Positions 1,571 to 2,063 of a DNA stretch of 6,045 nucleotides are shown here, piece after piece. Both the position numbers and the translations under genes were made by a program. The stretch's first letter is position 1; the number at the start of each line of letters is the position of its first letter. The DNA is from a virus (Duplodnaviria; Heunggongvirae; Uroviricota; Caudoviricetes). The notes under the pieces are model-generated. The model ran no database searches. It saw nothing but the letters and a program-made list of their open reading frames with translations, and was not told the DNA's origin. The stretch lies in the IMG/VR virus record IMGVR_UViG_2671180755_000006. One strand, written 5' to 3'.

Positions 1571-1755
1571 GTAAAACGAATCCGGGCTGGGCAAGGCCAC
1601 TTATGGCGAAAAAACATCATTATTTTGCTGAAGGTGAAATAACAAGTATTTGCGGTGGGTGGATGTATTTTGGCAATGAGCGTGAGCCGGATACATTCGA
1701 AAGTCCAGATGATTGTAAAAAGTGTCGTAGAAAATTAAATAAGGGGGGTAAATGA
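1567..1755 (+). CDS. hypothetical small Cys/His-containing protein, 62 aa from GTG 1567 (or 50 aa from ATG 1606)
   Basis: GTG 1567 is preceded by AAAGGAGG (1554-1560) at 6-nt spacing. Contains C...CKKC plus two His, a possible small metal-binding element. Stop overlaps the next start (ATGA 1752-1755). Confidence 0.55.
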   Translation: MSKTNPGWARPLMAKKHHYFAEGEITSICGGWMYFGNEREPDTFESPDDCKKCRRKLNKGGK

Positions 1756-2063
1756 GCGTAATTAAAGAAATGCCAGTGGAACGTAATGAATATGGCTGCT
1801 GGACGCATCCTGAATATGAAAAATTCTGTGATGGTCGGGAATATATTTCAACGGAAGAGTTTAACGCCTGGATGGAGAAAAATAATCTTCAGTGGGCTAT
1901 CCGTAGTATGGATGAAGATGATTTTAATCTGGACGCAGATGGCCCTGATATTTCAGCATGGGAACCTGAGCGACCAGAAGGTGAGGGATGGTTTATCGGT
2001 TCGATACATGACACCGAAGATGGTCCTGTTTGTGTATGGCTGAGAAATAAGGCCGAAGCATAA
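1752..2063 (+). CDS. hypothetical strongly acidic, Trp-rich protein, 103 aa
   Basis: ATG 1752 preceded by AAGGGGGG; TAA at 2061-2063. By hand count about 25 Asp/Glu against about 9 Lys/Arg, with 6 Trp. Confidence 0.7.
   Translation: MSVIKEMPVERNEYGCWTHPEYEKFCDGREYISTEEFNAWMEKNNLQWAIRSMDEDDFNLDADGPDISAWEPERPEGEGWFIGSIHDTEDGPVCVWLRNKAEA

What the first reader, a model, noticed from the sequence alone, without database searches (positions are those of the whole stretch)
1752..2063. Strongly acidic, Trp-rich 103-aa protein as a DNA-mimic or anti-defense candidate
By hand count about 25 Asp/Glu against about 9 Lys/Arg, with acidic runs (MDEDDFNLDADGPDISAWEPERPEGEGW) and 6 Trp. Small highly acidic phage proteins are the typical profile of DNA-mimic anti-restriction proteins (Ocr and ArdA style). 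This is a hypothesis from composition only.
Basis: inference. Interest (0 to 1): 0.5.

Follow-up and report, generated by a model that had tools for sequence, protein, structure and literature searches.

The report
Conserved acidic accessory protein of phages/plasmids
The 103-residue acidic, tryptophan-rich protein is a real, strongly conserved gene from a large uncharacterized family carried by temperate phages and F-type conjugative plasmids; it may inhibit a host DNA-handling protein, but nothing found here shows that it mimics DNA as Ocr or ArdA do.

Summary
ORF 1752-2063 encodes 103 aa with 25 D/E, 9 K/R and 6 W (pI 4.2, net charge about -16). It is a real gene: it has a strong RBS, its start overlaps the upstream stop (ATGA), and dN/dS is 0.075.

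The window is the nin region of an E. coli O157:H7 lambdoid prophage. The protein (WP_000111243.1, "hypothetical") belongs to phrog_1372. It has no Pfam, NCBIfam or PADLOC match and no solved relative by sequence or fold.

The AF2 model is confident (pLDDT 84): a compact alpha/beta domain with a long acidic loop.

The family has 977 representatives at 50% identity. Acidity is a family trait (mean net -13.6), but the most conserved residues are an aromatic/Gly/Pro/His/Arg core, and some plasmid members are nearly neutral.

The family is not phage-specific. Homologs occur on 2,029 plasmids (1,756 conjugative), inside tra operons or between finO and repA next to nuclease-like genes, and not in leading regions.

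Membership of the Ocr or ArdA families is not met. The best reading (confidence about 0.35) is a cytoplasmic accessory protein that binds and blocks a basic surface of a host or rival DNA-processing protein.

The parts
1752..2063 (+). Coding sequence of the 103-aa acidic, Trp-rich protein (WP_000111243.1; phrog_1372 family); stop codon TAA at 2061-2063
1741..1755 (+). Translation start region: AAGGGGGG Shine-Dalgarno (1741-1748), ATG at 1752 overlapping the TGA stop (1753-1755) of the upstream small ORF (ATGA, likely translational coupling)
   Evidence: Read directly from the sequence. In 81 related loci the upstream ORF is one of at least 5 unrelated small genes, and in nearly all loci (in all five larger groups) it overlaps the start by 4-14 nt
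1782..1811 (+). N-terminal conserved motif R11-(D/N)12-x-x-G15-x-W17-T-H19-P20
   Evidence: Family-wide column frequencies: R11 0.96, D12 0.84, G15 1.00, W17 0.87 (aromatic 0.99), H19 0.99, P20 0.94
1908..1958 (+). Acidic loop, residues 53-69 (MDEDDFNLDADGPDISA): acidic in composition, with D54, D56 and D66 conserved as acidic; residues 55-64 vary in sequence and length
   Evidence: Alignments A1 and hmmalign; pLDDT about 71 in blocks 51-70 and no regular secondary structure; dN/dS 0.096 among close alleles
1959..2045 (+). C-terminal conserved core, residues 70-98: W70-x-P72-x-x-P75-x-G77-x-G79-W80-F81 leading into a beta-hairpin (80-88, 91-99) with the acidic tip H86-D87-T88-E89-D90-G91, then C94, W96, R98
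   Evidence: W70 0.99, P72 0.95, P75 0.97, W80 0.99, F81 0.94, D87/E89 acidic 0.91/0.92, G91 0.96, R98 0.88 (basic residue 0.91); strands in the AF2 model; dN/dS 0.022

Best explanation
The gene encodes a cytoplasmic, non-essential accessory protein made early in the lytic programme of a lambdoid prophage; it is co-transcribed with the nin-region genes between the replication genes and Q. It folds into a compact alpha/beta domain: a short strand, two helices, and a three-stranded sheet that includes a C-terminal hairpin. A rigid core rich in aromatic, Gly and Pro residues carries near-invariant R11/D12/H19. The conserved acidic face is formed by the hairpin tip (D87, E89, D90) and the long acidic loop (D54, D56, D66, E78). 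I infer that it acts stoichiometrically, docking this acidic face onto a basic, nucleic-acid-binding surface of a host or rival-element DNA-processing protein (a nuclease or restriction-type enzyme is the leading candidate) and blocking it. That would make it an inhibitor that competes with nucleic acid through a specific docking site, rather than a generic rod-shaped B-DNA mimic like Ocr or ArdA. Shown here: a real gene under purifying selection, family-wide acidity, a confident novel fold, and its position in accessory regions of two kinds of mobile element. Inferred only: binding, the target and inhibition.
For: - Composition and family-wide conservation of negative charge, with about 11 columns conserved as acidic.
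- A confident compact model, pLDDT 83.9 and pTM 0.73, with no solved relative. It is therefore not an ordinary known enzyme or structural fold.
- No signal peptide or TM segment in phage or plasmid members.
- Location in mosaic early accessory operons of temperate phages of Entero-, Vibrio-, Pseudomonas-, Burkholderia- and Acinetobacter-type hosts, next to RdgC, exonucleases and DNA methyltransferases.
- Independent acquisition by F-type conjugative plasmids at three different positions. In IncFII(K)-type plasmids it lies in a block with PD-(D/E)XK-like DUF2726, PIN7 and PLD/DrmC-like nuclease genes (DUF2726 classification from PMC3424549).
- Fusions in metagenomic representatives to Lar-like (3), Tad2-like (1), DEDD exonuclease (2) and DHH/DHHA1 (1) domains.
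- High prevalence: 792 of 5,426 complete E. coli genomes, median 2 copies.
Against: - No binding partner is identified, and neighbours vary: at least 5 different upstream genes. Nuclease neighbours are common background in phage early regions.
- The most conserved residues are W/G/P/H/R rather than acidic ones, and some plasmid homologs are nearly neutral (net -4). Charge may therefore be secondary to a specific pocket.
- There is no diversifying selection among close alleles (dN/dS 0.075-0.10), unlike many arms-race proteins.
- On plasmids the gene is not in the leading region.
- The Lar and Tad2 fusions could not be confirmed in complete phage records and may be gene-calling artefacts.
- The surface electrostatics of the model could not be computed.
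Confidence: 0.35

Rival explanations
1. Ocr/ArdA-style DNA mimic: the protein, probably as a dimer, displays carboxylates with the spacing of B-DNA phosphates and soaks up type I restriction-modification enzymes.
For: Net charge -16 on 103 aa, or -0.155 per residue against -0.239 for Ocr. Acidity is conserved in the family. The gene is in an early accessory operon. Three metagenomic members carry an N-terminal Lar-like restriction-alleviation domain.
Against: No Pfam match to Ocr, ArdA or other anti-restriction families. No fold match in PDB or BFVD to any mimic. The fold is a compact alpha/beta domain, not an elongated helical rod. The densest acidic stretch is variable and contains indels. 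Near-neutral plasmid members exist. The gene is not in plasmid leading regions.
Confidence: 0.08
2. Small-molecule or nucleotide binder: a sponge for an immune or regulatory signal, or a metal-binding domain. It would use the near-invariant aromatic, His and Arg residues as a ligand pocket, with the negative charge incidental or needed for solubility.
For: Near-invariant R11, W17, H19, W70, W80, R98 plus H86, D87, E89 and C94. This pattern fits a pocket better than a charge decoy. Strong purifying selection on the C-terminal core (dN/dS 0.022). One representative is fused to a Tad2-like domain.
Against: No similarity to Tad1, Tad2, Acb2 or other sponges by sequence or fold. Strong negative charge disfavours binding anionic nucleotides. 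H86 and C94 are only about 75% conserved. The Tad2 fusion is a single unverified metagenomic protein.
Confidence: 0.15
3. Adapter or regulatory module of the element's own DNA transactions (recombination, replication, conjugative DNA processing) or a modulator of host physiology. It would be one of a pool of accessory genes shared by phages and F-type plasmids, as TraR is (my own knowledge), and not an anti-defence factor.
For: Recurrent neighbours are RdgC, exonucleases, integrase and excisionase in phages, and tra genes or repA in plasmids. It is frequently fused to Ead/Ea22-type coiled-coil modules and to a promiscuous unknown module. Selection is purifying rather than diversifying.
Against: Patchy, mosaic distribution with variable neighbours argues against a fixed machine partner. 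Up to 4 copies per genome. Conserved strong acidity still needs an explanation.
Confidence: 0.2
4. Small enzyme, for example a hydrolase or transferase using H19, D12, H86, D87 and E89 as catalytic or metal-binding residues.
For: Near-invariant polar residues clustered in two motifs, R-D-x-x-G-x-W-T-H-P and S-I-H-D-T-E-D-G.
Against: Only about 100 aa. No match to any enzyme family or fold. H86 and D90 are replaceable. The motif sits at a hairpin tip in the model.
Confidence: 0.1
5. Not a functional gene: a chance ORF or decaying remnant in a cryptic prophage.
For: The prophage integrase is frameshifted in the matching genome.
Against: dN/dS 0.075. 977 family representatives across Proteobacterial mobile elements. 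Strong RBS and operon packing. Confident fold prediction.
Confidence: 0.01

Closest known systems
T7 Ocr (gp0.3) and ArdA anti-restriction DNA mimics
   Same: Small, strongly acidic, cytoplasmic, encoded by mobile elements and expressed early. Charge density is of the same order: -0.155 per residue against -0.239 for Ocr.
   Different: No sequence or fold relationship. Compact alpha/beta domain with a Trp-rich core rather than an elongated helical dimer (the Ocr and ArdA architecture is from my own knowledge). The acidic loop is poorly conserved. Far higher sequence conservation of non-acidic residues. Not in the plasmid leading region.
Other small acidic inhibitors of DNA-binding proteins (T7 gp5.9, T4 Arn, DinI, PsiB; nuclease inhibitors such as barstar, colicin immunity proteins, NuiA); named from my own knowledge
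   Same: They work like the proposed mechanism: an acidic surface occupies the nucleic-acid-binding site of one specific target protein. On IncFII plasmids the homolog sits among nuclease-like genes: DUF2726, PLD and PIN.
   Different: No homology to any of them (Pfam and PDB searches). No fixed cognate nuclease gene next to the phage copies. The neighbouring plasmid PLD has a signal peptide and DUF2726 has a TM segment, whereas this protein is cytoplasmic.
phrog_1372 / phrog_20322 / phrog_6157 (PHROGs families of unknown function)
   Same: Direct sequence membership: E=3.7e-55 to phrog_1372. The related families contain the same domain fused to other modules.
   Different: These families carry no functional annotation, so membership names the family but explains nothing.
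Ead/Ea22-like modular early proteins of lambdoid and P22-like phages
   Same: Same genomic pool of small, shuffled early accessory modules. Family members are fused to phrog_492/614 coiled-coil modules, which also match the window's ORF 1214-1570.
   Different: The target itself has no Ead/Ea22 domain and is a distinct globular domain.

Membership tests
Ocr (T7 gp0.3) family | Sequence membership of the Ocr Pfam family | tested here: not met
   Pfam-A scan of the protein at E<=0.01 gave no family at all
Ocr (T7 gp0.3) family | Ocr-like fold (all-helical elongated dimer; my own knowledge) | tested here: not met
ArdA family | Sequence or fold similarity to ArdA | tested here: not met
   No Pfam hit; no PDB sequence hit with the single sequence or the family profile; no fold hit
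ArdA family | Location in the leading region of conjugative plasmids (my own knowledge of ArdA) | tested here: not met
   Plasmid homologs lie between traW and traU, between traB and traV, or between finO and repA
DNA-mimic proteins (functional class) | Very high net negative charge | tested here: met
   Net -16.3, pI 4.21; family mean -13.6; less extreme than Ocr
DNA-mimic proteins (functional class) | Carboxylates arrayed on a rigid surface with phosphate-like spacing | not testable with these tools
Indirect evidence is mixed: 11 conserved acidic columns, but the densest acidic stretch is a variable loop of lower confidence
DNA-mimic proteins (functional class) | Competitive binding to a DNA-binding protein | not testable with these tools
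   Requires biochemistry
phrog_1372 (unknown function) | Significant full-length match to the family profile | tested here: met
   E=3.7e-55, residues 1-102 on profile positions 55-158
Known anti-phage defence or anti-defence protein families in PADLOC/Pfam (Lar, Tad2, etc.) | Sequence match of the target itself | tested here: not met
   No PADLOC hit at E<=1 and no Pfam hit. Lar-like and Tad2-like domains occur only as fusion partners in 4 of 74 long representatives
Anti-defence genes (functional class) | Encoded in an early-expressed accessory region of a mobile element | tested here: met
   Nin region of a lambdoid prophage, and early operons of diverse temperate phages
Anti-defence genes (functional class) | Relieves a defined defence system | not testable with these tools
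   No experimental record found by accession, PHROG id or peptide, and the sequence is absent from the supplements of one accessory-gene screen

The most novel reading that the evidence does not exclude
The family is a previously unrecognized, structurally novel class of inhibitor shared by temperate phages and F-type conjugative plasmids, including the pKpQIL-type KPC plasmid backbone. It would neutralize a specific host or rival-element nuclease or defence enzyme through a conserved Trp/His/Arg docking site flanked by an acidic, nucleic-acid-like face.
Probability: 0.25. Interest if true: 0.6.

Novelty: new member of a known kind. Interest (0 to 1): 0.38.

Why it matters
If the inhibitor reading is right, this would be a new and very widespread counter-defence or host-takeover family with a new fold. 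The gene or a homolog is present in about 15% of complete E. coli genomes (often twice per genome in O157:H7 prophages), on more than 2,000 sequenced plasmids including epidemic Klebsiella IncFII(K) carbapenemase plasmids, and in phages of at least five proteobacterial host groups. Identifying its target could reveal a host barrier that matters for both phage infection and plasmid spread. If not, it remains a well-defined domain of unknown function that deserves a Pfam entry. As it stands, this is an ordinary "conserved hypothetical" accessory gene with a suggestive composition.

Tried and rejected
1. Pfam, NCBIfam and PADLOC scans of the target gave nothing.
2. PDB sequence searches with the single sequence and with the family profile gave only noise.
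4. I suspected a Rosetta-stone link to the downstream ORF 2190-2753, because 19 fusion flanks clustered with it. This was single-linkage chaining: only one protein (P0176) shares a 58-aa module with it.
5. I looked for a fixed translationally coupled upstream partner, such as the Cys-containing 62-aa ORF. I rejected this because at least 5 unrelated upstream genes occur in close relatives.
6. I tried to verify the Lar-like and Tad2-like fusions in complete phage genomes. This failed: the SopranoGao match is the domain plus a helical extension, not Tad2.
7. Literature searches by accession, PHROG id, ORF names and peptide strings gave no hits. The supplements of the Silas et al. 2025 screen do not contain the sequence. 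The "Lar" hits in Iyer et al. 2017 matched the word "large".
8. A second large homology search with a diverse profile gave only "hypothetical protein" names and no Pfam domains.
9. I tested for diversifying selection in the acidic loop and found none.

Full report
**Where the window comes from**

The RefSeq gene order in this region, with window coordinates in brackets, is:

- a LexA-like repressor, cro/cI, YdaT, a DnaT-like replication protein and replication protein P (all upstream of the window);
- a DUF1627 gene (273-971);
- five small "hypothetical" genes: 993-1217, 1214-1570, 1603-1755, 1752-2063 and 2190-2753;
- a hok/sok locus;
- a DUF968/HNH gene (3726-4775);
- RusA;
- antiterminator Q (4957-5646);
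- tRNA genes.

The finding therefore lies in the nin-type delayed-early region, between the replication genes and Q.

**Checking the observation**

It has 25 Asp/Glu, 9 Lys/Arg and 6 Trp, with pI 4.21 and net charge -16.3.

- Its charge density is -0.155 per residue. T7 Ocr, taken from the T7 record, has -0.239.
- Among about 1,390 background ORFs from related phage loci, this family itself forms the acidic extreme.
- The gene has an AAGGGGGG ribosome-binding site, and its ATG overlaps the stop of the upstream ORF (ATGA).
- Across 23 distinct close alleles, dN/dS is 0.075 overall, 0.096 in the acidic loop and 0.022 in the C-terminal core.

**What family it belongs to**

The protein has no Pfam, NCBIfam or PADLOC match. 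It matches phrog_1372, a family of unknown function, at E=3.7e-55.

- A search of 5.8 billion proteins found 160 relatives, all named "hypothetical" or "prophage protein", with no precomputed Pfam domain.
- A second search with a diverse profile gave the same picture.
- An exhaustive profile search of 1.84 billion cluster representatives found 977 proteins at E<=1e-3 and 350 at E<=1e-10.
- tblastn finds the family in 57 phage records, all annotated hypothetical. Hosts include Escherichia, Erwinia, Klebsiella, Yersinia (PY54), Pectobacterium, Providencia, Serratia, Vibrio, Pseudomonas, Burkholderia, Acinetobacter and Nitrincola, and some genomes carry two copies.
- The gene is present in 792 of 5,426 complete E. 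coli genomes, with a median of two copies.

**Conservation pattern**

Across 141 representative domains that are less than 50% identical to each other, net charge averages -13.6, ranges from -21 to -2 and is never positive. Trp content averages 5.7. Acidity is therefore a selected family trait.

About eleven columns are conserved as acidic: D12, E30, E36, E47, D54, D56, D66, E78, D87, E89 and D90. The densest acidic stretch, residues 55-64, is only compositionally acidic and varies in sequence and length.

The most conserved positions are not acidic. They are R11, G15, W17, H19, P20, W40, W70, P72, P75, G77, G79, W80, F81, G91, W96 and R98, together with the hairpin-tip motif S-I-H-D-T-E-D-G-P. 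Plasmid homologs can be nearly neutral (net -4 to -12) and still keep this core.

**Structure**

AlphaFold2, run with a 25-sequence alignment, gives a confident model (mean pLDDT 83.9, pTM 0.73). The elements in order are a short strand, helices at 20-26 and 34-43, a strand at 46-52, a long loop at 53-79 (pLDDT about 71 over residues 51-70), and a beta-hairpin at 80-88 and 91-99.

- Foldseek against the PDB: best E is 0.16.
- Sequence and profile searches of the PDB return nothing meaningful.
- Foldseek against BFVD returns only uncharacterized members of the same family and no Ocr, Arn or other mimic.

The fold has no solved relative. I could not compute surface electrostatics because the model coordinates are not exposed.

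**Genomic context in phages**

In 81 closely related loci, the immediately upstream gene is one of at least five unrelated small ORFs, and in nearly all loci it overlaps the start codon by 4-14 nt. The downstream gene falls in the cluster of the window's ORF 2190-2753 in 50 of 64 loci. The protein is therefore an independent mosaic module with no fixed partner.

The gene appears in different operon positions in different phages:

- In phage mEp460 it lies in the early-left "ea" region, between the repressor and the integrase.
- In the P1-like phage D6 it lies in an accessory block with Ead/Ea22-like, DUF4752, metallophosphoesterase and HNH genes.
- In PY54, Providencia, Vibrio, Pseudomonas, Burkholderia and Yersinia prophages it lies in early operons with RdgC, exonucleases, DNA methyltransferases, HD hydrolases, excisionase and integrase.

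**Fusions**

About half of the best 150 representatives are longer than 160 aa, and the domain occurs at either end of them.

- The most frequent partner is a promiscuous module of about 100 aa (ER.RQ..EGWT.EHDD.H..GEL..AA.CY..WPW..WKP..RRDLVKAGALILAEIERLDR). It has no Pfam or PDB match and also forms the C-terminus of many PHROG families of unknown function.
- Other partners are Ead/Ea22-type coiled-coil modules and a helical extension of about 60 aa, confirmed in PY54 ORF48 and SopranoGao_66.
- Rarer partners are Lar-like zinc ribbons (3), Rv2179c-like DEDD exonucleases (2), Tad2-like (1), KTSC (1) and DHH/DHHA1 (1).

The Lar and Tad2 fusions are suggestive of an anti-defence role. However, they come from metagenomic representatives that I could not confirm in complete phage genomes.

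An apparent link to the downstream ORF 2190-2753 was mostly a clustering artefact.

**Plasmids**

The family is not phage-specific. tblastn finds homologs at about 34-45% identity on 2,029 plasmid records, of which 1,756 are conjugative and 1,496 are from Klebsiella.

- In pKpQIL-type IncFII(K) KPC plasmids the order is traI-traX-finO-PIN7-hypothetical-DUF2726-[homolog]-PLD nuclease-repA2-repA. The homolog overlaps the DUF2726 gene by 4 nt.
- DUF2726 belongs to the PD-(D/E)XK superfamily (PMC3424549), and the PLD protein matches DrmC models in PADLOC.
- Variants keep the homolog near the PLD gene, with other ORFs inserted or with the upstream part removed by a transposon.
- In other F-type plasmids the homolog is an accessory ORF inside the tra operon: between traW and traU in Pantoea and E. 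coli IncFIB-type plasmids (overlapping traU by 4 nt), and between traB and traV in a Yersinia plasmid.
- None of these positions is the leading region.
- The homologs lack signal peptides, whereas the neighbouring PLD has one and the DUF2726 protein has an N-terminal TM segment.

**Interpretation**

The data show a real, cytoplasmic, early-expressed, non-essential accessory protein with a novel compact fold and a selected acidic character. It has been acquired independently by temperate phages and by F-type plasmids.

That profile fits a stoichiometric protein inhibitor that occupies a basic, nucleic-acid-binding surface of a host or rival-element enzyme. I commit to this as the most likely mechanism, at a confidence of about 0.35.

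The narrower claim of an Ocr- or ArdA-style B-DNA mimic against type I restriction enzymes fails every membership test I could run. I rate it at about 0.08.

The extreme conservation of an aromatic/His/Arg core, the existence of near-neutral members and the absence of diversifying selection keep three rivals alive:

- a ligand or metal binder (0.15);
- an adapter for the element's own DNA transactions, or a host modulator analogous to TraR (0.2; the TraR comparison is from my own knowledge);
- a small enzyme (0.1).

**Novelty and literature**

No paper in the searchable library mentions the accession, the PHROG id, related ORF names or diagnostic peptides. The sequence is absent from the supplements of one large accessory-gene screen.

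The family is an uncharacterized domain with no Pfam entry and no structure. If it is an inhibitor, it would be a new member of the known kind [quoted passage not shown]. I score interest at 0.38. The composition-based hypothesis remains untested, but the family's breadth, its novel fold and its presence on epidemic resistance plasmids make it a reasonable experimental target.

Noticed in passing
window 3042-3346: A hok/sok type I toxin-antitoxin locus. The Rfam sok match covers 3042-3216 (114.9 bits). RefSeq annotates hokD here, and most of the hok coding sequence (3238-3346) is masked as N in the window.
   Followed up: partly
window 4837-4870: A second N-masked stretch lies inside the RusA-family Holliday junction resolvase gene (starts 4788, MLIDLVLPYPPTVNTY...), so that ORF cannot be read through in the window.
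   Followed up: no
window 2164-2181: A perfect 7-bp GC-rich hairpin with a GAAA loop (ACCGCCC-GAAA-GGGCGGU) sits in the 126-nt gap after the target gene, 8 nt upstream of the ATG of ORF 2190-2753. A GGAG lies just 5' of the stem and no T-run follows. The 81-nt region folds at -25.7 kcal/mol (z -2.66). It could bring a distant Shine-Dalgarno sequence close to the start codon or act as a processing or stability element; the consensus scan does not call it a terminator.
   Followed up: partly
window 2190-2753: The downstream ORF (187 aa, net -12.4) is also acidic and modular: phrog_3323/5117 at the N-terminus, phrog_660 in the middle and phrog_14306 at the C-terminus. It follows the target in 50 of 64 related loci. 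Its C-terminal 58-aa module recurs inside one fusion protein (P0176) that also contains the target's domain.
   Followed up: partly
window 1567-1755 (RefSeq start 1603): The upstream small ORF (phrog_2358) contains an HH...CGGW...CKKC pattern that could be a zinc ribbon. Its stop overlaps the target's start (ATGA). It is only one of at least five alternative upstream genes in related phages.
   Followed up: partly
window 5857-6045: tRNA genes lie directly downstream of Q, as in Stx-type phages (my own knowledge). One has anticodon CAT (ARAGORN calls it tRNA-Met, RefSeq annotates tRNA-Ile, so it is probably lysidine-modified), one is tRNA-Arg (TCG), and a third tRNA-Arg is cut by the window end. 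The matching genome has no stx downstream but TerB, DUF3927 and a SASA esterase.
   Followed up: partly
proteins P0184, P0160, P0175, P0192, P0224, P0248 and others (fusion partners): A promiscuous module of about 100 aa with the motif ER.RQ..EGWT.EHDD.H..GEL..AA.CY..WPW..WKP..RRDLVKAGALILAEIERLDR has no Pfam or PDB match. It is fused to the target's domain and forms the C-terminus of at least nine other PHROG families of unknown function.
   Followed up: partly
L090 10002-12964 (pKpQIL-type plasmid NZ_OQ821050.1): Between finO and repA, IncFII(K) KPC plasmids carry a block of three nuclease-like genes around the homolog: PIN7, a TM-anchored DUF2726 (PD-(D/E)XK-like), and a secreted PLD that matches DrmC models. 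This may be a defence or exclusion module of the plasmid backbone.
   Followed up: partly
L101 2971-3960 (Klebsiella phage SopranoGao): The gene just upstream of the family member in this phage ends in a WDGH domain (PF25311, E=1.4e-39), another recently defined phage domain. I did not look up its function.
   Followed up: no
phage records PEp14, Stean, Pavtok: Some roughly 60-kb Erwinia phages carry two copies of the domain in one genome, and E. coli genomes carry up to four copies in different prophages.
   Followed up: no
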